DNA of 64,000 nt. It comes from a virus. Numbering within the stretch: position 1 is the first letter of the stretch; every line of letters begins with the position of its first letter. Positions 135 through 32,462 of this stretch are shown in pieces. Location of the stretch: positions 14,720 to 78,719 of IMG/VR virus record IMGVR_UViG_3300033153_006492, one strand, 5' to 3'. The position numbers and the translations under genes are program-made. A model generated the notes under the pieces. It had not been told where the DNA came from. It saw only the letters and a list, made by a program, of their open reading frames with translations, and did no database searches.

Positions 135-551
135 ATGAATCATTTACGCAAATATCGTAACAATCCATTTTTATCAACTACATTATTCGATGAAATGTTG
201 GGTGAATTATTTCAACCGCGCGTTTCATACGACGCAGCTAAAATTGATGTTAAGGAATATGATGATAAAGTTGAAGTTATTGCAGAAATTCCTGGGTTTA
301 CAAAAGAAGACGTTACACTCGAATATGAAAAAGGACATCTGACAATTACTGGCGAATTAAAAAAGGATGCTGCTGAAGAAACTGGTAAATTTTTACACAA
401 AGAAATTGGTAGCCGGTCATTCGCTCGCAAATTTAATCTTGGAGATTTATTTGATGTATCTAAAATTGATGCTACGTTCAATGATGGTATACTAAGTATT
501 ACATTACCAAAGAGTGAAGACGAAAAGTCTCGCAAAATTACCATCAAATAA
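135..551 (+). CDS. hsp20: small heat-shock protein (Hsp20/alpha-crystallin)
   Basis: AEIPG, FARKFNL and ATFNDGILSITLPK motifs; GGAG RBS. Confidence 0.95.
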   Translation: MNHLRKYRNNPFLSTTLFDEMLGELFQPRVSYDAAKIDVKEYDDKVEVIAEIPGFTKEDVTLEYEKGHLTITGELKKDAAEETGKFLHKEIGSRSFARKFNLGDLFDVSKIDATFNDGILSITLPKSEDEKSRKITIK

Positions 552-829: not shown

Positions 830-1123
830 ATGAATGGTGTTATTGAAATTGTATTAGTTAATGTTAGAGCAATGATGGAAGTTACTAATCGTATTCGAAA
901 GGCAGAAGAATTTTTTGAAAAGGAAATGGCATTTATTGATGATATTGATGTGGATACATTTCATTCATATTCAGAAGAACTATTTCATATAAAAGAAGCT
1001 TTCAATGAGTGTGAAATAAAATATGAAAAAGGCGAAAATGTTTTTCTTGAAGTATTGTCGATATATCGTGCTTCTTTTGGGGTCGAACATTACATTCAGA
1101 GTATGAGTAAAGAAGATTATTAA
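830..1123 (+). CDS. hypothetical acidic protein
   Basis: ORF with AAGGAG RBS downstream of a promoter. Confidence 0.75.
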   Translation: MNGVIEIVLVNVRAMMEVTNRIRKAEEFFEKEMAFIDDIDVDTFHSYSEELFHIKEAFNECEIKYEKGENVFLEVLSIYRASFGVEHYIQSMSKEDY

Positions 1124-1130
1124 AATAAAT

Positions 1131-1158
1131 GGAACTTTATTGAAATTAAATCGTGTAA
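1131..1158 (+). promoter_or_regulatory. ECF-sigma-like promoter
   Basis: GGAACTT-N15-GTGTAA; motif recurs at 9743, 34128 and 53728. Confidence 0.5.
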
Positions 1159-1281
1159 TTAGGTATGTTTGAAAAAAATATATATACTTATACTTGTATA
1201 TATAAAATTTAAGAAGAATAATAAAAATTTAAAAGAAGGGAGATTGTCATGAATATGTGAAACTAAGAAGGAGAACATATC

Positions 1282-1443
1282 ATGGCAAAATCTCGAAGTG
1301 GATACAAACACCGTAAGCATGGTCGCGATAAAGTGAACTGTGAACGGTATCGTCGTGAAGGTCGTCGCGAAAAGAACAAAGCGCGTCGCCAAGCGAAACG
1401 TGAACGTCGTTTAGAAAAACGTCGTATACGCAGAGGTCTTTAA
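1282..1443 (+). CDS. 53-aa Arg/Lys-rich microprotein (not in ORF track)
   Basis: MAKSRSGYKHRKHGRDKVNCERYRREGRREKNKARRQAKRERRLEKRRIRRGL*; AAGGAG RBS; 25/53 residues are R or K. Confidence 0.8.
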   Translation: MAKSRSGYKHRKHGRDKVNCERYRREGRREKNKARRQAKRERRLEKRRIRRGL

Positions 1444-1447
1444 CAAC

Positions 1448-1677
1448 TTTTAGGGTCGGAGATGCAACGTTACCTCAGACGAAGCTGAAGAGAAGGTGAG
1501 TTTTCATACTTTACTCACTAACCATTCTATAAAACGAAGCCGAAAGGTTAGAATGGTCAGTATAAGTGTCTTGATAATAACAAACAAGTAAAAAGTCATT
1601 GATATAACAATGTAAATAAAAACGTGGAATAAACTACGGAATAAACAATTCTTCGTTGGTCATAATTTATCCTAAAG
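1448..1677 (+). ncRNA. Y-RNA-like RNA 1 (long)
   Basis: TTTTAGGGT(C bulge 1457)GGA pairs with TTTATCCTAAAG; CAACG pairs with CGTTG; GTTACCTC motif; upstream of Ro60. Confidence 0.75.
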
Positions 1678-1682
1678 CATTT

Positions 1683-1792
1683 TAAATGGGTCGCTGGTAC
1701 AGGGTTACCTCAATCGAAAACTGCGGCGTTCGCGCCGTAGGTGAAGCAGGACGTGATGCTCGTCAATCTCCTTGTCCACTTTTATCCGTTTA
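1683..1792 (+). ncRNA. Y-RNA-like RNA 2
   Basis: TAAATGGGT(C bulge 1692)G pairs with TATCCGTTTA; TGGTACAGGG pairs with CCTTGTCCA; same GGGTCG-N10-GTTACCTC as RNA 1; internal CTGCGGCG-TTCG-CGCCGTAG hairpin. Confidence 0.8.
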
Positions 1793-1809
1793 TATTTTTA
1801 ACATTACAT

Positions 1810-1883
1810 TGCGGGGTAGAGCAGTCTGGTAGCTTGCTTGGCTCATAACCAAGTGGTCGCTGGTTCAAATCCAGCCCCCGCAA
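1810..1883 (+). tRNA. tRNA-Met(CAT), initiator-like
   Basis: Full cloverleaf: TGCGGGG/CCCCGCA acceptor, CTTGG-CTCATAA-CCAAG, GCTGG-TTCAAAT-CCAGC; fMet-like D arm; CCA not encoded. Confidence 0.95.
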
Positions 1884-1915
1884 CTTTATAGGTCTTTCAC
1901 AATATAATAATACAA

Positions 1916-2239
1916 GTCCTCGTGGCCGAATAACACGTATAGGCGTGTAAGGCATTGTAGCCCCAGCTGAAAAGCTTGGGGAGCGAGTTACGAACTTGGT
2001 GCGGATAAGGTGGCGACGTTCTGGAAGTGAGATCAACTTTTGGGGTTGAAATAAACAGAAACGAGCGCACGATTGCAGAAATCCCCTAATACTTGGCATA
2101 TAGCTACTATCTGTGATTATGAAGGTACAATCAATCCTTCCACTATTTAAAGATAAATTTCGACGGAGATTTATTGGTGTGACTGAAAAATCCAAGTCCA
2201 GGCGTACGTTTGTGGGTAGATGCGAATCCCACCGAGGCA
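1916..2239 (+). ncRNA. unrecognised ~320-nt structured RNA with tRNA-like ends
   Basis: CCTCG(1918-22)/CGAGG(2233-37) acceptor-like stem; GTGGG/CCCAC T-like arm; GCC/GGC D-like stem; many internal stems; GC-richer than flanks; followed by a T run. Confidence 0.7.
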
Positions 2240-2268
2240 TTTTTTTATTAAAGTAACAAAACATTATT

Positions 2269-2330
2269 ATTGGGTCGTGAATGATGGTCATCGAGCATTC
2301 GTAAAAAACATCATTCAACATTTATCTGGT
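2269..2330 (+). ncRNA. Y-RNA-like RNA 3 (minimal, ~60 nt)
   Basis: ATTGGGT(C bulge)G pairs with TATCTGGT; TGAATGATG pairs with CATCATTCA; 3' TTTATC motif shared with RNAs 1 and 2. Confidence 0.65.
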
Positions 2331-2345
2331 TAATATTTTTAAGTG

Positions 2346-2377
2346 AACCCGCCAGATATTTCTGTGCGGGTTTTTTT
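2346..2377 (+). terminator. intrinsic terminator between the ncRNA cluster and the Ro60 gene
   Basis: AACCCGC-CAG..CTG-T-GCGGGTT followed by a T run. Confidence 0.75.
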
Positions 2378-2422
2378 GTTTATAAATTAGAGTCATTAAT
2401 TCTAAATCAGGAGGTACATATC

Positions 2423-4111
2423 ATGCAAAAGTATAACAAACATGTAAACACACAAAAGACTTCACAACAAGAAGCAATTTTAGGTCGTGAAAAAGAAATG
2501 GCAAAGAACTATGCTGGTGGTGTAGTTTTTAAATTAGACGATTGGAAGGTACTTGATAGGTTCTTAATTCTTGGAAGCGACAAACCTACTTACTATGCGT
2601 CTGCTCAAAAATTGACTAAAGAACATGCTAAGAATGTAATGGGATTAATTCAGGAAGATGCTAAGCGTGTCGTAGACCGTGTAGTTGAAATTTCATTAGC
2701 TGGTCGCGCACCAAACAACGATCCAGCATTATTCATTCTTGCGATGGTTGCAGGATTGGCTGACGACGAAGGAAAGAAATATGCACTTAGTGTTCTTTCT
2801 AAAGTAGCCCGTATTGGAACACACTTATTTCACTTTGCAGAATATGTACAAGGGTTTCGAGGTTGGGGTCGTGGATTAAGAAATGGAATTGCCAAATGGT
2901 ATCTTGAAAAGGATATTGATAAATTGGCTCTTCAAGTTGTAAAATATCAATCTCGCGATGGATGGTCTCACCGAGACATTCTTCGTAAGACTCACGTACA
3001 AGCCTTCAACGATGATATGAACAAAATTTTCGCTTGGGTTACACATGGAATTGGCGGCGAAATGAAAGTTAAGGGTGGAGAAACTGTAGAGACATTTCCA
3101 CATACTGTTAATGATGTAAAGGACATTAAATTGATCTATGCATTTGAAATGGCTAAGAAAGCAACGTCGGAAGATGAAATCGTTGCTTTGATTAAGGAAT
3201 ACAGATTGCCAAGAGAAGCTATTCCTACGAATTTCATGGGTAAGAAAGTTTACCGAGCTCTTTTACCAGGGATGCCTATGACTGCGTTAATTCGGAATTT
3301 AGGTAACCTGTCGAAGAATGGAATTCTTGTTGCTGGAAATTTTGACGACATTAATATGGTTGTTGAAAAAATTACTAACGAAGAAAACCTTAAAAAAGCA
3401 AGAGTTCATCCTATGCAATTGTTGATGGCAATGAAAACTTACGGAGCTGGACACGGAATGCGTGGGAAAGGTGAATGGAAAGTTGTACCACAGATCGTTG
3501 ATGCTTTGGATGAAGCATTCTACAAAGCATTCTCATTTATTGTACCATCTGGAAAACGAATTCTTATTGCGCTTGATATTTCCGGTTCAATGGGTATGGA
3601 TTACGGTGTGGCTGGTATTACTGGATTTACACCAAGAGAAGCATCTGCTGCTATGGCAATGGTAACGATGAAGGCAGAAAAGAATTGGGCAATTGTAGGA
3701 TTTTCTGGTGGATATGGTAATGGGAGTTGGAATAATAACCGTGATGAATTAATCACATTGGATTTATCACCGAACATGAGATTGAATGATGTTGTTAGAA
3801 AGGTAAGCAATTTACCATTTGGGTCTACTGATTGTGCATTACCTGCTGTTTGGGCGAAAAAAAATAAACTGGACTTTGATGCGATCTACATTTATACAGA
3901 CAGCGAAACTTGGGTTGGAAACATTCAACCGGTTCAAGCGATGAGAGATTATCGTAAAGCTGTTGGACATGATGTTAAACTTGTTGTGGTAGCAATGACC
4001 TCGACTGGATTCACAATTGCTGATCCAAAAGACGCCTCTATGCTTGACGTTGTAGGATTTGATAGTAATGCACCTGCAATAATGTCAAGCTTTGTAGACG
4101 ATAAATTATAA
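2423..4111 (+). CDS. rsr: Ro60/Rsr RNA-binding protein (TROVE + vWA)
   Basis: LDRFLILGS..TYY, RGWGRGLR, KYQSRDGWSHRD, MPMTALIRNL, ARVHP, MIDAS DISGSM, TDCALP, YTDSET, MLDVVGFD. Confidence 0.97.
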   Translation: MQKYNKHVNTQKTSQQEAILGREKEMAKNYAGGVVFKLDDWKVLDRFLILGSDKPTYYASAQKLTKEHAKNVMGLIQEDAKRVVDRVVEISLAGRAPNNDPALFILAMVAGLADDEGKKYALSVLSKVARIGTHLFHFAEYVQGFRGWGRGLRNGIAKWYLEKDIDKLALQVVKYQSRDGWSHRDILRKTHVQAFNDDMNKIFAWVTHGIGGEMKVKGGETVETFPHTVNDVKDIKLIYAFEMAKKATSEDEIVALIKEYRLPREAIPTNFMGKKVYRALLPGMPMTALIRNLGNLSKNGILVAGNFDDINMVVEKITNEENLKKARVHPMQLLMAMKTYGAGHGMRGKGEWKVVPQIVDALDEAFYKAFSFIVPSGKRILIALDISGSMGMDYGVAGITGFTPREASAAMAMVTMKAEKNWAIVGFSGGYGNGSWNNNRDELITLDLSPNMRLNDVVRKVSNLPFGSTDCALPAVWAKKNKLDFDAIYIYTDSETWVGNIQPVQAMRDYRKAVGHDVKLVVVAMTSTGFTIADPKDASMLDVVGFDSNAPAIMSSFVDDKL

Positions 4112-4167
4112 TACAGAACGCCGGGTGACTAAGGAGAGCCAGGAGAGTTGTGTACACAACCACATAC

Positions 4168-4195
4168 GCCGCCCCATTTTAGTGGGCGGCTTTTT
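4168..4195 (+). terminator. intrinsic terminator after rsr
   Basis: GCCGCCC..GGGCGGC plus TTTTT. Confidence 0.8.
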
Positions 4196-4220
4196 ATTCT
4201 AAAAAAATCTAAAAATAAAC

Positions 4221-4249
4221 TTGACTGTCGCTGCTAAATTTCGTATCTT
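4221..4249 (+). promoter_or_regulatory. sigma70-type promoter
   Basis: TTGACT-N17-TATCTT. Confidence 0.7.
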
Positions 4250-4282
4250 CTGTGATAGCCAAAAATTAATGGAGGATAAATT

Positions 4283-4570
4283 GTGTTGAAAGATGTACAT
4301 AGTCATTCGATTGATAATGCTAAAGAAATATTAGAAAGTGAATATTATGGCTGTTTTTCTTGTGTTGAAGTTCATACTGTTGATGAAGGTATGAAAGCAC
4401 AAGCCGAATATAGTTTATTGCATCCTGTGACGAATCCGAGTGGGTTAATAGAATCAACGGTATTTTGCCCGAAATGTATGATTGATTCAATCATAGGAGA
4501 CGCTACGGGGTATAAGATTACTCATGAACTTATGAGTGAGTTAGAAAAACATTGGTTTGGTGAAAAATAA
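4283..4570 (+). CDS. small Cys-rich (Zn-binding) hypothetical protein
   Basis: GCFSC and FCPKC pairs; GGAGG RBS. Confidence 0.75.
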   Translation: MLKDVHSHSIDNAKEILESEYYGCFSCVEVHTVDEGMKAQAEYSLLHPVTNPSGLIESTVFCPKCMIDSIIGDATGYKITHELMSELEKHWFGEK

Positions 4571-13578: not shown

Positions 13579-13607
13579 TTGACATTGAGTTGTGGATTTA
13601 GTATATT
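13579..13607 (+). promoter_or_regulatory. sigma70-type promoter
   Basis: TTGACA-N17-TATATT. Confidence 0.75.
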
Positions 13608-13635
13608 CTGTAAAACTAACATAAGGGAAAATGTA

Positions 13636-14397
13636 ATGACTGATAGTTTAGGTGATCGGATGAAGAAATATGAAAAACAAGCATCTAATCAAATTGATGC
13701 TAATCTTCCTGTATTTGTACGATTGGATGGTAAAGCCTTCCATACATGGGTAAAAATTATGGGATGTGAGAAACCATTTGATGAATCACTTTCATATCTT
13801 TTTCAAACAGCAACAGTTAATACTTGTCAAGATATTGGACAAGTGATTATGGCTTATAGTCAATCGGACGAAGTGACATTTTTATTAAGTGGTTGGCAGC
13901 ATCTTGATTCCCAGATTTATTTTGGTGGGAAGAGTCAAAAGATTACGTCTGTTATTGCATCTATATTTACTGGTCATTTTATCAGGACTTTGTTAGGTAT
14001 GAATGAATATGCTGTATTGGCTGATGGTGAAATCAAATTACCTTCATTTGATGCTCGTGTATTTAATGTGCCTGTACATGAAATTGAAAATGTTTTTATT
14101 TGGCGACAGATGGATGCTAAGAGAAATTCTATTCAATCAATAGCCCGTTCATTGTATAGTCATAAAGAATTAAATGGAAAATCATCTAAGATTATGTTAG
14201 ATATGATTAAAGCTAAAGATTTAGATTGGAACGATTTACCTATTATTCAAAAGCTTGGATTTGTTGTTAAAAAGGATGAATACATTGTTCCGTCTGATAC
14301 TGGTAATGTTGTTCGTACTCGTTGGATAATTGATAATGATATTCCATTTTTTGTAGATGAATCTGAATATATTACTGATTTAATTTCAGCAGAATAA
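13636..14397 (+). CDS. thg1: tRNA(His) guanylyltransferase / Thg1-like 3'-5' polymerase
   Basis: LGDRMKKYE, RLDGKAFH, YSQSDE, FDAR, WRQMDAKRNS; start moved to ATG 13636. Confidence 0.95.
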   Translation: MTDSLGDRMKKYEKQASNQIDANLPVFVRLDGKAFHTWVKIMGCEKPFDESLSYLFQTATVNTCQDIGQVIMAYSQSDEVTFLLSGWQHLDSQIYFGGKSQKITSVIASIFTGHFIRTLLGMNEYAVLADGEIKLPSFDARVFNVPVHEIENVFIWRQMDAKRNSIQSIARSLYSHKELNGKSSKIMLDMIKAKDLDWNDLPIIQKLGFVVKKDEYIVPSDTGNVVRTRWIIDNDIPFFVDESEYITDLISAE

Positions 14398-15950: not shown

Positions 15951-17935
15951 TGGCTAATTTTGATAAACATTATGTAGTTAATTTTGCTCGCTTAGTATTA
16001 GAGTATGAAACTAAAGGTAAGATACTGGGTATAGCGTCGTCTGATAAAATGCTTCTTAGTCATGTGATGCGGGGTAAAATAAAAGAGTACGACGTTGTAA
16101 AGTTGATTGATAAAGCTTTATGTAAGTATGTAACTTTATTTTCATCTTATGGGATAAACTATAAGTCCTTAGCAATATCGAATGATGATATAACTGCTGG
16201 AAAACGGGTATTTGATAAGTTAAGTATTTATGTTGATTTACAAAGCAACATGTTAGAAATACGATTACCGTGGTTGACGCGAAATAAATTTGATCCTTTG
16301 ATACAATTCTTCAGAGAAGATTTGAACATGGAATTTGAAAAGCGTCAAGATAAGGATCCTGTTTGGTTTACTCTTGTACGAGATGAAGGAGTATTTGATG
16401 AAATAAAAAACAATCCATTAGTACAAGAAATTGGTTATGAAATGGATGACAGACAGATATTAGATTCGATTGCAAAGGCTAGAGTTGACAAGGAAAAACA
16501 AAAGAAGTTATTTGGGCTTTCAATGACAGCCAATCTTGGAATAGAATCCGGCGAATTCAAAGGATTATTTGCTAAGTTATATCCATTCCAACAAGTTGCT
16601 ATTGAGTATTCTAAATTTAGAAATGGTATATTAATTGCTGACGAAATGGGATTAGGGAAGACGCTTCAAGCTCTTGCTATCACAGAATATCATCAGTTAT
16701 ATCCTGCTGTGATTGTAGTTCCTGCGATGTTACGACAGAATTGGAAACGCGAAATTGAATTATGGTTACCTCATAAGAAGGTGTCTGTGATTACTTCAAA
16801 AAAGGTTATACCTCCTGGAGAAATATATGTAGTTAGTTATGGAATGGTATCAGATTTGGGTAGTCGATTTTATATTAAGAAACCAAAAGTTATTATATGT
16901 GATGAATCTCATTATTTGAAAAATCCTGACGCTGCTCGTACAGAATTTGTATTGAAGTATTTTAAGGATGTACCATTTAAGATATTAACTACTGGAACAC
17001 CGATATTAAATAAAACTCTTGAATTAGTACCTCAATTGGATTTGATTGGAGTTTTGGATTCACACTTTGGTGGTCGTAGAAAATTTATTAAACGATATGC
17101 TCCACCTCAATTTAATGGATATGGAACAACATACGGAAGCGCTAACGAAGAAGAATTACAAGTAGAATTACGAAAATCGTGTATGCTTCGTCGATTGAAA
17201 AAAGATGTATTAACTGAATTACCAGATAAGATTCGTCAAATTGTTTTATTGCCATTATCTGATAGAGCGGCTTATGAAAAGGTAGAACAGGATTCAATTA
17301 ATTGGTATGAAACAAAACTTAAACGACAAGATTTATCTAAAGAAGAAGTTGATAAACAAGTTCAACAAAAATTGGCAACTCGTAGTTCTTTTGCTGAAAG
17401 AATGATTCGTGTAGAATATTTACGACAAGCCGCTGTTGATTACAAAATGAAGGCTGTATTTGAATGGATTGATGATACATTAGAACAAGTTGATAAATTA
17501 GTAGTATTTGCTTATCATAGAAACACTGTTGAACAATTATATAAACGATATGAAAAAATGTCTGTTATGTTATATGGTGGTATGAGTGGTCAAGTTGATA
17601 GTATTGTAAATAAGTTTGTGACTGATAAACAAACTCGGTTATTTATAGGTTCAATGAAATCGGCTGGAATTGGTATTGATGGACTTCAGGAAGTGTGTGA
17701 TAGAGCCGTATTTGTTGAATTAGATTGGACACCAGCAATAATGGCTCAGGCTGAAGATAGATTACATAGGATAAAGCAAAAGAATACTGTACACATATAT
17801 TATTTGATTGGTGAAGGAACGATTGAAGAATATGTACATAGCATAGTTGTTGAGAAGGAAGAAATTTTCGAAAAGGCGACGAACATAAGCAAGTTATTTA
17901 CTTGGATGAAGAAACGCAAGGCAGCGAAAGAATGA
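15950..17935 (+). CDS. SNF2-family helicase (SMARCAL1/HARP-like)
   Basis: LIADEMGLGKT, CDESH, TGTP, QAEDRLHRI. Confidence 0.93.
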   Translation: MANFDKHYVVNFARLVLEYETKGKILGIASSDKMLLSHVMRGKIKEYDVVKLIDKALCKYVTLFSSYGINYKSLAISNDDITAGKRVFDKLSIYVDLQSNMLEIRLPWLTRNKFDPLIQFFREDLNMEFEKRQDKDPVWFTLVRDEGVFDEIKNNPLVQEIGYEMDDRQILDSIAKARVDKEKQKKLFGLSMTANLGIESGEFKGLFAKLYPFQQVAIEYSKFRNGILIADEMGLGKTLQALAITEYHQLYPAVIVVPAMLRQNWKREIELWLPHKKVSVITSKKVIPPGEIYVVSYGMVSDLGSRFYIKKPKVIICDESHYLKNPDAARTEFVLKYFKDVPFKILTTGTPILNKTLELVPQLDLIGVLDSHFGGRRKFIKRYAPPQFNGYGTTYGSANEEELQVELRKSCMLRRLKKDVLTELPDKIRQIVLLPLSDRAAYEKVEQDSINWYETKLKRQDLSKEEVDKQVQQKLATRSSFAERMIRVEYLRQAAVDYKMKAVFEWIDDTLEQVDKLVVFAYHRNTVEQLYKRYEKMSVMLYGGMSGQVDSIVNKFVTDKQTRLFIGSMKSAGIGIDGLQEVCDRAVFVELDWTPAIMAQAEDRLHRIKQKNTVHIYYLIGEGTIEEYVHSIVVEKEEIFEKATNISKLFTWMKKRKAAKE

Positions 17936-18468
17936 AAATCATATTTTTAGATTTTGATGGAGTGGTTTGTATATGGAATTCAATACATAGCGCTCGTAAA
18001 TTATTTAAGGATAGTATAAATATCTCAGACAGGGATGCTTGTCATATACAAATGATTGATCCTACTTTAGTTGAAAATCTTAATAAAGTTATAGAACAAA
18101 CTGATGCTAAGGTGGTAATATCTTCGTCGTGGAGATATGGAAATACGACTGATGAATTATTATTATATTTACAAAAACAAGGATTTACAGGAGAAGTTAT
18201 AGACAGAACTCCTGTGTGGAAGGAATATAAAGATGAATTGGGTTCACTTACAGCGAATGAATTCATCCGATTTTGGGAATATACTCGTGGAAATGAAATA
18301 CATATGTGGTTAGAAAAACATGATGTTGAGTCTTTTGTTATACTTGATGATGAGGTTTCTGACATATTTCCTGTATTTCCCGATAATTATATACGGACGG
18401 ATATGGAACGCGGATTTCACAGCGAACTTATTCAAGAGGCTATAGATAAATTAAACAAGGAGGCATAA
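17932..18468 (+). CDS. HAD phosphatase (Swiss-army-knife RNA-repair type)
   Basis: IIFLDFDGV, VISSSWR, RGNEI, FVILDD. Confidence 0.85.
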   Translation: MKIIFLDFDGVVCIWNSIHSARKLFKDSINISDRDACHIQMIDPTLVENLNKVIEQTDAKVVISSSWRYGNTTDELLLYLQKQGFTGEVIDRTPVWKEYKDELGSLTANEFIRFWEYTRGNEIHMWLEKHDVESFVILDDEVSDIFPVFPDNYIRTDMERGFHSELIQEAIDKLNKEA

Positions 18469-20158: not shown

Positions 20159-20365
20159 ATGGACGTTAGGAAGAATCAATTAGTTAAATTCACACCGCCA
20201 GTTGGATATGAGGATGAATATCCATTTGAAAAAGATGAAGTGGTTTTGTTTCTGGGTGAAATTGAATTAATGAGTGGACATTGTATTGTAGTTAAAAAAA
20301 CTGGGCAAGTATTGTGGGGATACCACACTGATAATTTTATACCGATCACAGAGGAGGAAATATGA
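20159..20365 (+). CDS. hypothetical protein
   Basis: Operonic ORF. Confidence 0.65.
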   Translation: MDVRKNQLVKFTPPVGYEDEYPFEKDEVVLFLGEIELMSGHCIVVKKTGQVLWGYHTDNFIPITEEEI

Positions 20366-20841
20366 TAAATTGGGAACGAGAAACAGATACACACATATAT
20401 TTTTGGAATGGTATTTTTTCCAACTTTCATTCAGTGGAATTTGAATATAAGGATCACATATTTCAAAATACTGAACAGGCTTTTATGTGGGAAAAGGCTA
20501 TGTATTTTAATGATATGGTAATGGCAAACAAAATACTTAATACTCCAATACCTGGGAAAGCAAAGGCATTAGGGCGGAAGGTGAAGAATTTTGATGATAA
20601 AAAATGGACTCTTATTTCATATCAAATTATGTGTAATGTCAATCGGGCGAAATATGGTCAACATTCTGATTTACAAAAAGTGTTATTATCTACAGGCTCC
20701 AAAATTATTGTTGAAGCATCTCCTTATGATAAAATTTGGGGAGTTGGATTACATTGGTCTGACGACAAACTTCTTAATGAATCAAATTGGGATGGATTAA
20801 ATTTATTAGGAAAATGTTTAATGGAAGTAAGAAATGGATAA
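20362..20841 (+). CDS. NADAR (YbiA-like) protein
   Basis: FSNF, EQAFMWEKA, AKALGR, VEASPYDKIWGVG, GLNLLGKCLMEVR. Confidence 0.95.
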   Translation: MINWERETDTHIYFWNGIFSNFHSVEFEYKDHIFQNTEQAFMWEKAMYFNDMVMANKILNTPIPGKAKALGRKVKNFDDKKWTLISYQIMCNVNRAKYGQHSDLQKVLLSTGSKIIVEASPYDKIWGVGLHWSDDKLLNESNWDGLNLLGKCLMEVRNG

Positions 20842-31449: not shown

Positions 31450-31785
31450 GGGAGCGTTCATGGATTCGATCAGAGGATAAAAGTAAATGACAGCAATACG
31501 TTGGGAAACGTAAAATCTAATAAAGAATAATTAACAACTCATATCAACTTGCTGCGTAATTAATTGCGTAGTCGTCAATCCATCTTTTGTCGAGAGGTGG
31601 AAATTGACGCCGTATTCGACAAGAACTTTTGGTGGTAGGTCAAAACAAAAATATCTACTCGTGGGTAATAAATTTTCTTGTTTATTTTTAGTTTATTTTA
31701 CACGTTAAAATTTAAGAATAAACTATTATTGTAGAAGTCATTTAAGTTTGCTTTTGAGACGCGGGCTCGATTCCCGCCGCTTCCA
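31450..31785 (+). ncRNA. ssrA: tmRNA
   Basis: GGGAGCG/CGCTTCC-A acceptor with G3-U70; GGATTCGA; T arm GCGGG-CTCGATT-CCCGC; pk1-like element; tag frame ..NNSYQLAA* at 31533-31559. Confidence 0.93.
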
Positions 31786-31813
31786 CTTTTAATTTAATAC
31801 AAAGGAGAATTGA

Positions 31814-32353: not shown

Positions 32354-32425
32354 GTGCCATAGGTGTTACTGGAAGCACGCCACGTTGCCAACGTGGAGGA
32401 ACGAGTTCAAGCCTCGTATGGCGCT
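32354..32425 (+). tRNA. tRNA-Gly(GCC)
   Basis: GTGCCAT/ATGGCGC acceptor, CCACG-TTGCCAA-CGTGG, ACGAG-TTCAAGC-CTCGT, U73 discriminator. Confidence 0.93.
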
Positions 32426-32462
32426 CTTTTTTTATTATACTCAAAAACGAAGGAGAATTAAG

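What the first reader, a model, noticed from the sequence alone, without database searches (positions are those of the whole stretch)
1282..4111. Phage Ro60 locus with a modular array of three Y-RNA-like RNAs sharing one Ro-binding stem but carrying different payloads
Seen: three elements upstream of rsr begin GGGTCG (1453, 1688, 2272) and end TTTATCY (~1666, ~1781, ~2321). Each folds into a terminal helix with a bulged C, an internal loop and a second helix whose sequence differs between copies yet still pairs (CAACG/CGTTG; TGGTACAGGG/CCTTGTCCA; TGAATGATG/CATCATTCA). RNAs 1 and 2 share GGGTCG-N10-GTTACCTC exactly. Sizes are ~230, ~110 and ~60 nt. Established: Ro60 binds the bulged-C helix of Y RNAs; bacterial Y RNAs lie next to rsr; in Deinococcus a Y RNA tethers Rsr to PNPase; YrlA RNAs carry a tRNA-mimic domain. 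Inference: none of these three has the YrlA T-arm/D-arm domain, so the phage may use one Ro60 with interchangeable RNA adaptors that recruit different effectors or act as decoys. They are co-located with an fMet-like tRNA, a large unknown RNA and an Arg-rich peptide.
Basis: partly seen in the sequence, partly recalled or inferred. Interest (0 to 1): 0.9.

Follow-up and report, generated by a model that had tools for sequence, protein, structure and literature searches.

The report
Three phage Y RNAs beside Ro60
Three small folded RNAs encoded just upstream of a giant phage's Ro60 gene carry the standard Ro60-binding "handle" of bacterial Y RNAs but have inner parts found only in this phage group, so they are new members of a known RNA family, not a new system.

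Summary
The three elements are real, and their closing helices are 7-9 bp long, not 4. Refined coordinates are 1448-1677, 1683-1792 and 2269-2330.

All three recur in two related uncultured giant phages whose Ro60 is 66-67% identical. Their upper stems show compensatory changes.

They share one layout:
- a closing helix;
- a bulged C followed by G·U;
- an 8-9 pair upper stem;
- a UUAYC or UCAUC junction.

This layout fits a descriptor that scored 69 hits on the rsr-sense strand against 2, 1 and 0 in controls across 82 phage Ro60 loci. Across 80 bacterial rsr loci it scored 72 against 1, 2 and 0. It also picks up a textbook YrlA. The elements are therefore Y RNAs with the canonical handle, in its U-A variant under the bulge.

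None has a tRNA-like domain. Their inner parts have no relative outside this three-phage clade.

Multiple Y RNAs per Ro60 is already published, for Salmonella, M. smegmatis, Deinococcus and Thermus phage phiLo. This scan has also seen it before on other DNA. Effector recruitment remains untested.

The "large unknown RNA" at 1914-2246 is an enlarged relative of the manA RNA motif.

A possible Ro60-sensing attenuator, formed by RNA3 and the terminator, is the boldest reading still open.

The parts
1128..1169 (+). Promoter-like site at the head of the ncRNA cluster: AATGGAACTTT followed by a -10-like box
   Evidence: The consensus scan finds TTGAAA-18-TATGTT at 1140-1169. By eye, AATGGAACTTT also sits upstream of the RNA clusters of L002 (about 2826 and 3188) and L005 (about 1405). 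It is not a frequent motif in the window. The promoter role is inferred.
1282..1443 (+). 53-aa Arg/Lys-rich ORF with a good ribosome-binding site; orphan
   Evidence: Translation. No hit in Pfam, PHROGs, NCBIfam or PDB. I saw no such ORF upstream of RNA1 in L002 or L005 (reading).
1448..1677 (+). Y RNA 1 (230 nt). Handle: 9-bp closing helix UUUUAGGGU/AUCCUAAAG, bulged C at 1457, upper stem AUG+CAACG / CGUUG+(GU bulge)+CAU, then UUACC. Cargo: about 170 nt, A-rich, several hairpins.
   Evidence: Orthologues are L002 2931-3170 and L005 1649-1900. The upper stem changes CAACG/CGUUG -> CAGAG/CUCUG -> CAGGG/CCUG(U).
1683..1792 (+). Y RNA 2 (110 nt). Handle: 9-bp closing helix, bulged C at 1692, upper stem UGG[U]ACAGGG/CCUUGUCCA, then UUACC. 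Cargo: a variable hairpin plus the conserved GCAGGACGUGAYGCKCGUCAAUCUC hairpin.
   Evidence: Orthologues are L002 3341-3429 (model R1 23.3 bits) and L005 2045-2151. Three upper-stem pairs show compensatory changes.
1810..1884 (+). tRNA-Met (CAU), partly initiator-like
   Evidence: ARAGORN; Rfam tRNA 67 bits. Also present in the same cluster in L002 and L005.
1914..2246 (+). Structured RNA of about 330 nt: an enlarged relative of the manA RNA motif (RF01745)
   Evidence: RNAalifold on 3 orthologues gives 85 pairs, 39 with compensatory change. manA model scores: L005 34.3 bits, E 2.7e-7, whole model with a 182-nt insertion; L002 20.1 bits, E 0.011; window 12-15 bits. All are below the gathering score of 55.2.
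2269..2330 (+). Y RNA 3 (62 nt). Handle: weak 7-bp closing helix AUUGGGU/AUCUGGU (4 G·U pairs), bulged C at 2276, 9-bp upper stem UGAAUGAUG/CAUCAUUCA, then UCAUC. Small loop.
   Evidence: Model R1 scores 11.2 bits, E 0.18 in 6 kb. The orthologue L002 3846-3913 scores 24.5 bits, E 0.002.
2347..2378 (+). Intrinsic-terminator-like hairpin plus U run between Y RNA 3 and rsr. Its 5' arm CCAGAUA is complementary to the 3' strand of Y RNA 3.
   Evidence: Fold with z = -3.6. Duplex of -11.7 kcal/mol, matched by 0.5% of shuffles. The same relation holds in L002 with a different sequence.
2423..4111 (+). rsr: phage Ro60 (562 aa), a TROVE ring plus a vWA domain with a DxSxS metal-binding (MIDAS) motif
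   Evidence: Pfam PF05731 1.4e-35 and PF25045 8.8e-59. PDB 2NVO 2.6e-118, human and Xenopus Ro60 about 1e-114. phrog_850.

Best explanation
The three elements are phage-encoded Y RNAs, the non-coding partners of the Ro60 ring protein encoded just downstream. Each consists of a conserved handle and a variable cargo. The handle is made of 5' and 3' ends paired into a 7-9 bp helix, a bulged C, G·U/N·U pairs, an internal loop, an 8-9 pair upper stem and a UUAYC/UCAUC junction. The cargos are about 170, 65 and 22 nt. The RNAs are most likely made as one precursor from a promoter near 1130-1170, together with a tRNA-Met and a manA-like RNA, and then released by processing. A leaky terminator at 2347-2378 lets only some transcripts run on into rsr. 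By analogy with Deinococcus, Salmonella and Thermus phage phiLo, the handle binds the outer face of Ro60 and gates its cavity, and the cargo tethers the ring to other factors, with host PNPase as the precedent. Shown here: sequence, fold, conservation, covariation, and the strand-specific association of this handle with rsr genes in phages and bacteria. Inferred: transcription and processing, Ro60 binding, and any effector.
For: (1) The neighbouring gene is a full-length Ro60. (2) All three RNAs recur in L002 and L005 (Ro60 66-67% identical), with the handle kept and compensatory changes in the upper stems: RNA1 2 pairs, RNA2 3 pairs, RNA3 2 pairs. The outer part of the closing helix differs between copies yet always pairs, e.g. 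UUUUA/UAAAG, UAAAU/GUUUA, AUU/GGU, UGAU/AUCA. (3) A strict handle descriptor gives 61 sense-strand hits against 0, 0 and 0 in antisense, reversed and complement controls. A version allowing one bulge gives 69 against 2, 1 and 0 over 82 phage Ro60 loci, and the window's only three hits are these RNAs. The same descriptor gives 72 against 1, 2 and 0 over 80 bacterial rsr loci and picks up the textbook YrlA of L012. (4) In 21 short phage Y RNAs from other clades, the pair under the bulged C is C-G in 12 and U-A in 9, and the next pair is G·U in 20. The covariation score is 0.65 against 0.25 in shuffles, with 0 of 500 shuffles reaching it. GGGU[C]G...UUAUCC is therefore the common U-A variant of the handle. 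(5) A covariance model built without this clade finds the canonical Y RNAs of the same record (44, 35 and 23 bits) and the L002 orthologues of RNA2 and RNA3 (23-24 bits, E 0.002-0.004). (6) Literature: a GNCGAA-type 5' motif, a conserved YUAY after the stem, and at least two Y RNAs per species including non-tRNA-like hairpin forms (PMC4201824). The UA of that motif forms the kink between handle and cargo (10.1101/312249). A phage Ro60 binds two phage Y-like RNAs encoded upstream of its gene, and these also bind host PNPase (PMC12135203).
Against: There is no expression or binding data. The window copies themselves score poorly with the independent model: RNA3 gets 11.2 bits (E 0.18), and RNA1 and RNA2 are not recovered at all, probably because their loops exceed what a 67-position model allows. 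Only RNA1 (GUCGGAG) approaches the published GNCGAAN0-1G motif; RNA2 (GUCGCUG) and RNA3 (GUCGUGA) do not. Covariation inside the clade rests on three genomes only. My descriptor requires pairing, so its hits cannot be used to prove pairing; only the excess over controls and the variety of pair types count.
Confidence: 0.8

Rival explanations
1. Y RNA 3 is mainly a cis-acting sensor, not mutually exclusive with the best explanation. Its 3' strand can pair either with its own 5' strand, which completes the handle, or with the 5' part of the terminator in front of rsr. If Ro60 binds the nascent handle, the terminator is free to form and rsr transcription falls. This would be negative autoregulation.
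For: rsr has no room for its own promoter after the terminator (2379-2422), so it depends on read-through. Window UAUCUGG (2322-2328) is complementary to CCAGAUA (2352-2358): duplex -11.7 kcal/mol, reached by 0.5% of shuffles. L002 has CAAGAUAU against AUAUCUUG: -9.5 kcal/mol, 0.45% of shuffles. The sequences differ but the relation is kept. The window RNA3 handle is the weakest of the set, with 4 G·U in 7 bp.
Against: Only two genomes. In L002 the complementary stretch covers the terminator's loop and 3' arm, not its 5' arm. In most other phage loci the last Y RNA abuts the rsr ribosome-binding site with no terminator (positions). A constitutively leaky terminator that simply sets the RNA:protein ratio explains the layout equally well.
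Confidence: 0.15
2. The RNAs act as decoys or sponges and not as adaptors of the phage protein. For example, they could titrate a host Rsr, a host exoribonuclease or an RNA-sensing defence protein.
For: The handle is the same as that next to bacterial rsr genes, so a host Ro60 could in principle bind it. The phage carries many RNA-maintenance genes: Thg1-like, HAD_SAK_2, NADAR, tmRNA and more than 20 tRNAs. That fits a conflict over RNA.
Against: The phage keeps its own full-length Ro60 next to the RNAs in all three genomes. The host is unknown. Nothing here distinguishes a decoy from an adaptor.
Confidence: 0.1
3. The elements are processing or spacer structures of a tRNA operon, such as RNase III/E sites or stabilising hairpins, with no link to Ro60.
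For: They sit in one cluster with a tRNA. The three canonical copies upstream directly abut tRNA genes.
Against: The same handle is tied strand-specifically to rsr in 39 of 82 phage loci and 41 of 80 bacterial loci, many without tRNAs nearby. It contains the conserved bulged-C/G·U step known from Ro60-Y RNA complexes (PMC4201824).
Confidence: 0.04

Closest known systems
Bacterial Y RNAs YrlA/YrlB (Salmonella Typhimurium, Mycobacterium smegmatis) and Yrn1/Yrn2 (Deinococcus radiodurans) with Rsr (Chen et al. 2014, PMC4201824)
   Same: Encoded within 2 kb of rsr on the same strand and co-transcribed. The 5' and 3' ends pair into a long stem with a GNCG...-type 5' motif, followed by a conserved YUAY. 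Several Y RNAs per genome share the handle and differ in their loops, including hairpin-type members without a full tRNA-like domain (YrlB, Yrn2).
   Different: None of the three window RNAs has the T-arm/D-arm domain that defines YrlA. The pair under the bulged C is U-A, not C-G. RNA1 is unusually long: 230 nt, among the 3 longest of 68 descriptor hits. The cargos have no relative outside the clade.
Thermus phage phiLo Ro60 with Yrl1 and Yrl2 (PMC12135203)
   Same: A phage-encoded Ro60 with Y-like RNAs encoded just upstream of its gene. In vitro these RNAs bind phage Ro60 and host PNPase, which is the most direct functional precedent.
   Different: Two RNAs there, against three here plus three more in the tRNA array. 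The phages are unrelated. The phiLo RNAs were identified by a CGAA motif. I did not compare sequences.
Metazoan Y RNAs (Rfam RF00019)
   Same: A closing helix with a bulged C followed by G·U and A·U pairs (GGUC[C]GA/UUGAC), then an internal loop, an upper stem and a variable loop.
   Different: No hit to RF00019 at E<=10. Different transcription (Pol III). No sequence similarity beyond the short motif.
manA RNA motif (RF01745; Weinberg et al. 2010, PMC2864571; cryo-EM preprint 10.64898/2026.07.01.735769)
   Same: Applies to the 1914-2246 RNA only. Shared features are the 5' block GUGRCYGAAUA-hairpin-UAAGG, the 3' hairpin UGYGRGUA...AAUCYCRC and the closing stem. Both are phage-borne.
   Different: About 330 nt against about 190, with a roughly 180-nt insertion. 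Scores are below the Rfam threshold. The RNA sits inside a Y RNA/tRNA/rsr cluster and not in a 5' UTR of a metabolic gene.

Membership tests
Y RNA (Ro60-binding handle, bacterial/phage type) | Encoded close to, and on the same strand as, a Ro60/Rsr gene | tested here: met
   The RNAs lie 93-975 nt upstream of rsr (2423-4111) on the + strand.
Y RNA (Ro60-binding handle, bacterial/phage type) | 5' and 3' ends pair into a long stem | tested here: met
   9, 9 and 7 bp closing helices. The outer pairs differ between copies yet stay paired.
Y RNA (Ro60-binding handle, bacterial/phage type) | Bulged C in the stem followed by a G·U step | tested here: met
   C1457, C1692 and C2276, each followed by G opposite U. 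The same step is found in 21 of 21 seed RNAs from other phages, with G·U in 20.
Y RNA (Ro60-binding handle, bacterial/phage type) | 5' motif GNCGAAN0-1G (Chen et al. 2014) | tested here: inconclusive
   RNA1 GUCGGAG is close, with G in place of the first A. RNA2 GUCGCUG and RNA3 GUCGUGA match only GNCG. Many other phage copies read GUCGGAG or GCCGGAG.
Y RNA (Ro60-binding handle, bacterial/phage type) | Conserved YUAY at the junction after the upper stem | tested here: met
   UUAC in RNA1 and RNA2, UCAU in RNA3. The feature is described in PMC4201824 and 10.1101/312249.
Y RNA (Ro60-binding handle, bacterial/phage type) | Stems supported by covariation | tested here: met
   Within the clade. Across phages: covariation 0.65 against 0.25 in shuffles, 0 of 500 reaching it, and slid controls 0.13-0.21.
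Y RNA (Ro60-binding handle, bacterial/phage type) | Significant score with an independent covariance model of the handle | tested here: inconclusive
   Model R1 was built without this clade. Window RNA3 scores 11.2 bits, E 0.18; RNA1 and RNA2 are not recovered. The L002 orthologues score 23-24 bits, E 0.002-0.004, and the canonical copies in the same record 23-44 bits.
Y RNA (Ro60-binding handle, bacterial/phage type) | Binds Ro60 and depends on it for stability | not testable with these tools
   Needs RIP, EMSA or Northern blotting.
YrlA (Rfam RF02553, tRNA-like Y RNA) | Central T-arm and D-arm forming a tRNA-like elbow | tested here: not met
   No RF02553 or extra RF00005 hit in 1100-4300 at E<=10. 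The RF02553 hits in the whole record overlap annotated tRNA genes (positions) and are all below the cut-off; the model also rings in 13 of 14 control genomes.
Ro60/TROVE protein | TROVE ring plus C-terminal vWA domain | tested here: met
   PF05731 123.7 bits and PF25045 198.6 bits; full-length match to 2NVO.
manA RNA motif (RF01745), for the 1914-2246 RNA | Score at or above the Rfam gathering threshold (55.2 bits) | tested here: not met
   12-15 bits in the window, 20.1 in L002, 34.3 in L005.
manA RNA motif (RF01745), for the 1914-2246 RNA | Conserved 5' and 3' core blocks and closing stem | tested here: met
   The whole-model alignment in L005 matches the GUGaCUGAAUA...UAAgGu and UGugGGUA...AAUCCcaCC blocks. 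The same blocks are conserved, and their flanking stems covary, in all three orthologues.

The most novel reading that the evidence does not exclude
Y RNA 3 doubles as a protein-sensing leader. Ro60 binding to the nascent handle frees the downstream terminator to form, so the ring protein shuts off its own gene, while the upstream Y RNAs, the tRNA and the manA-like RNA keep being made. This would be the first Y RNA acting in cis as a Ro60-responsive attenuator.
Probability: 0.12. Interest if true: 0.7.

Novelty: new member of a known kind. Interest (0 to 1): 0.4.

Why it matters
The finding extends the Y RNA family to a clade of uncultured giant phages. It also shows that the handle, including the UUAYC junction, is kept when the tRNA-like module is absent. 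That places the junction motif with the Ro60-binding half of the RNA and not with the tRNA mimic.

The three clade-specific cargos are ready-made baits for finding what a phage Ro60 is tethered to. The 170-nt cargo of RNA1 and the conserved hairpin of RNA2 are the most useful.

The simple descriptor used here recovers Y-type handles beside half of 160 phage and bacterial rsr loci with almost no false hits. It could serve for annotation where Rfam YrlA fails.

None of this changes the current picture of Ro60 biology.

Tried and rejected
- **Rfam, gathering and E<=10 thresholds:** no Y_RNA or YrlA hit. I first took this to mean that Rfam lacks a bacterial model. That was wrong: RF02553 exists but is stringent, and it also missed the textbook YrlA of L012 at its threshold.
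- **The look-up of encoding contigs:** The DNA behind 13 closer Ro60 relatives at 64-84% identity could not be fetched.
- **Collection scans:** the metagenome, IMG/VR and GTDB scans added no further member of the clade.
- **RNA-derived DNA patterns:** these found only the same contigs.
- **Sequencing runs:** none was listed and no RNA holder was listed.
- **Model R1:** it could not reach RNA1 and RNA2.
- **nhmmer with the three RNAs and the large RNA:** nothing outside the clade.
- **The Arg-rich ORF:** no relatives in Pfam, PHROGs, NCBIfam or PDB.
- **Large RNA as RNase P, tmRNA or a Y RNA:** rejected. Its GCCGAAU is part of a covarying GCC/GGC stem and is not a bulged-C step.
- **AATGGAACTTT as a general phage promoter:** not enriched in the window.
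Full report
**What is there.** The window is the 3' 64 kb of a 78.7-kb IMG/VR virus record estimated to be 37% complete, so it comes from a giant phage. ORF 2423-4111 is a full-length Ro60. It has TROVE (1.4e-35) and the Ro60 vWA domain (8.8e-59), and it matches D. radiodurans Rsr at E 2.6e-118 and human and Xenopus Ro60 at about 1e-114.

Upstream on the same strand lie, in order:
- a promoter-like site (1128-1169);
- an orphan 53-aa Arg-rich ORF (1282-1443);
- RNA1;
- RNA2;
- a tRNA-Met (1810-1884);
- a structured RNA of about 330 nt (1914-2246);
- RNA3;
- a terminator-like hairpin (2347-2378).

**Check of the observation.** The main correction is that the closing helix is not the 4-bp GGGU/AUCC. 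It runs on outwards to 9, 9 and 7 bp, which gives RNAs of 230 nt (1448-1677), 110 nt (1683-1792) and 62 nt (2269-2330). Single-sequence folding statistics are unimpressive (z -1.5, -0.2 and -2.2), so the case rests on comparison with related sequences.

**Comparative evidence within the clade.** Two related giant-phage contigs (L002 and its near-duplicate L001, and L005; Ro60 66-67% identical) carry the same set: three GGGUCG...UUAUCC RNAs of matching sizes, the tRNA-Met and the large RNA. In L002 the tRNA sits between RNA1 and RNA2; in L005 the large RNA precedes the third Y-type RNA and the tRNA follows it.
- RNAalifold recovers the closing helix and the upper stems.
- The upper stems carry compensatory changes. 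RNA1 goes CAACG/CGUUG -> CAGAG/CUCUG -> CAGGG/CCUG(U). RNA2 goes ACAGGG/CCUUGU -> UUAACG/CGUUAG -> ACAACG/CGUUGU. RNA3 goes GAAUGAUG/CAUCAUUC -> GUUGAUG/CAUCAAC.
- The outer closing-helix pairs differ between paralogues yet always pair.
- L005's third copy looks like a truncated RNA1 paralogue and not an RNA3 orthologue.

**Comparative evidence beyond the clade.** I wrote a descriptor requiring:
- a closing helix of at least 7 bp;
- a bulged C;
- G·U then N·U;
- an upper stem of at least 8 pairs, with one bulge allowed;
- T[TC]A[TC]C within 2 nt after the stem.

Over 82 phage Ro60 loci (749 kb) it hits 69 times on the rsr-sense strand, 2 times antisense, once in reversed sequence and never in complemented sequence. 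The window's only three hits in 64 kb are RNA1, RNA2 and RNA3. The stricter version without a bulge gives 61 against 0, 0 and 0. Over 80 bacterial rsr loci from many phyla it gives 72 against 1, 2 and 0. It also picks up a textbook YrlA with T and D arms in L012. The handle is therefore the general Y-RNA handle of bacteria and phages.

In an alignment of 21 short phage Y RNAs from other clades:
- the pair under the bulged C is C-G in 12 and U-A in 9;
- the following pair is G·U in 20 of 21;
- the covariation score is 0.65 against 0.25 in shuffles (0 of 500 reaching it) and 0.13-0.21 when partners are slid.

GGGU[C]G...UUAUCC is thus the ordinary U-A variant of the handle, not a special phage invention.

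A covariance model built from that alignment finds three canonical Y RNAs among the tRNAs at the start of the same record (44, 35 and 23 bits) and the L002 orthologues of RNA2 and RNA3 (23-24 bits). The window copies are weaker or out of its reach. I count that single test as inconclusive.

**What is known.**
- Chen et al. 2014 (PMC4201824) describe a 5' GNCGAAN0-1G motif and a conserved YUAY that follows the stem.
- The same paper reports Y RNAs encoded within 2 kb of rsr and processed from one precursor.
- It reports at least two Y RNAs per species, one tRNA-like and one a plain hairpin.
- It explicitly suggests that the extra Y RNAs let Ro60 join different partners.
- The UA of the YUAY motif makes the kink between handle and cargo in the YrlA crystal structure (10.1101/312249).
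- Thermus phage phiLo Ro60 binds two phage Y-like RNAs encoded upstream of its gene, and these RNAs also bind host PNPase (PMC12135203).

What is specific here:
- No T/D-arm domain in any of the three RNAs.
- A very long RNA1, among the 3 longest of 68 hits.
- Three copies at one locus, where only 5 of 82 loci have three or more, and six in the record.
- Cargos with no detectable relative outside the clade in 1.5 Mb of Ro60 loci.

**How it most likely works.** The steps below are inferred, not shown.
1. One transcript starts near 1170 and runs through the ORF, RNA1, RNA2, the tRNA, the manA-like RNA and RNA3.
2. tRNA-processing and other nucleases release the RNAs. The three upstream Y RNAs start 0-4 nt after tRNA genes.
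3. The hairpin at 2347-2378 stops most transcripts. There is no room for another promoter before rsr, so Ro60 is made from read-through and the RNAs end up in excess.
4. The handles dock on Ro60 and the cargos bind something else.

The surrounding genes fit a role in keeping, or reshaping, the RNA pool during infection. They are a Thg1-like enzyme, HAD_SAK_2, NADAR, a tmRNA and more than 20 tRNAs.

**The boldest reading still open.** The 3' strand of RNA3 is complementary to part of the terminator in both phages, although the sequences differ. In the window, UAUCUGG pairs with CCAGAUA at -11.7 kcal/mol. In L002, CAAGAUAU pairs with AUAUCUUG at -9.5 kcal/mol. Each value is reached by about 0.5% of shuffles. 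This would allow Ro60-dependent attenuation of rsr. With only two genomes and a simpler alternative (a fixed leaky terminator), I give it about 12%.

**The large RNA.** Three orthologues support 85 pairs, 39 of them with compensatory change. All three hit Rfam manA (RF01745) below threshold: L005 34.3 bits, E 2.7e-7, over the whole model with a 182-nt insertion; L002 20.1 bits; window 12-15 bits. The conserved 5' and 3' blocks are those of manA. The motif was described as a riboswitch candidate of cyanophages (PMC2864571). A 2026 preprint (10.64898/2026.07.01.735769) reports that manA RNAs form RNA-only decamers and 60-mer cages. An earlier report of this scan on other DNA reached the same identification. 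I reached it through Rfam before reading that note, and took only the preprint lead from it.

**Verdict.** The identity as Y RNAs is well supported at about 0.8. The function is inferred from precedent. This is a new member of a known kind, and the scan has reported phage Y-RNA arrays and the manA-like RNA before on other DNA.

Noticed in passing
window 1914-2246: The 'large unknown RNA' is an enlarged relative of the manA RNA motif. It is conserved with 39 compensatory pairs in three giant phages and always sits inside the Y RNA/tRNA/rsr cluster. manA RNAs were proposed to be cis-regulatory and are reported in a 2026 preprint to self-assemble into RNA-only cages. This context argues for a free-standing RNA.
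   Followed up: partly
L092 (G000:C1) 243-306, 391-478, 562-649: Three further Y RNAs with the GAGC[C]GAAU...UUUGUUC handle each start 0-4 nt after a tRNA gene (Trp, Arg, Gly). Their ends could therefore be made by tRNA-processing enzymes. The third carries a T-arm-like hairpin UUGG-UUCGAGU-CCAA.
   Followed up: partly
L006 3642-3767 and about 3775-3895: Two tRNA-like genes, one scoring 52 bits with the tRNA model, carry in place of the anticodon loop a hairpin UUUGACC-GAAA-GGUACGG. This is the local Y-RNA handle closed by a tetraloop, so these are tRNA/Y-RNA chimeras with an open acceptor stem, the reverse topology of YrlA. Seen by eye only.
   Followed up: no
window 31450-31788 and 32354-32426: A phage-encoded tmRNA (110.8 bits) and a tRNA-Gly. 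The upstream 14.7 kb of the record holds 21 more tRNA genes, including one with a CUA (amber) anticodon at G000:12975-13050.
   Followed up: no
window 13579-14397, 17902-18468, 20362-20841: Genes for a Thg1-like tRNA 5'-repair enzyme, a HAD domain of 'Swiss Army Knife' RNA-repair proteins, and a NADAR domain. Together they form an RNA-maintenance gene set around the Ro60 locus.
   Followed up: no
window 1282-1443: A 53-aa Arg/Lys-rich ORF with a strong ribosome-binding site sits between the promoter-like site and Y RNA 1. It has no relatives in four libraries, and I saw no counterpart at the same place in the two related phages.
   Followed up: partly
L005 2808-2870 and 2895-3015: The related phage L005 has, after its tRNA-Met, a canonical short Y RNA (57.7 bits with model R1) and a weak YrlA-like element with a T-arm and D-arm (RF02553, 22 bits). 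The clade therefore does contain a tRNA-like Y RNA candidate that is missing at this position in the window.
   Followed up: partly
window 135-551: An Hsp20/IbpA-type chaperone gene lies about 1.4 kb upstream of the manA-like RNA. Weinberg et al. listed ibpA among the genes found next to manA RNAs.
   Followed up: no
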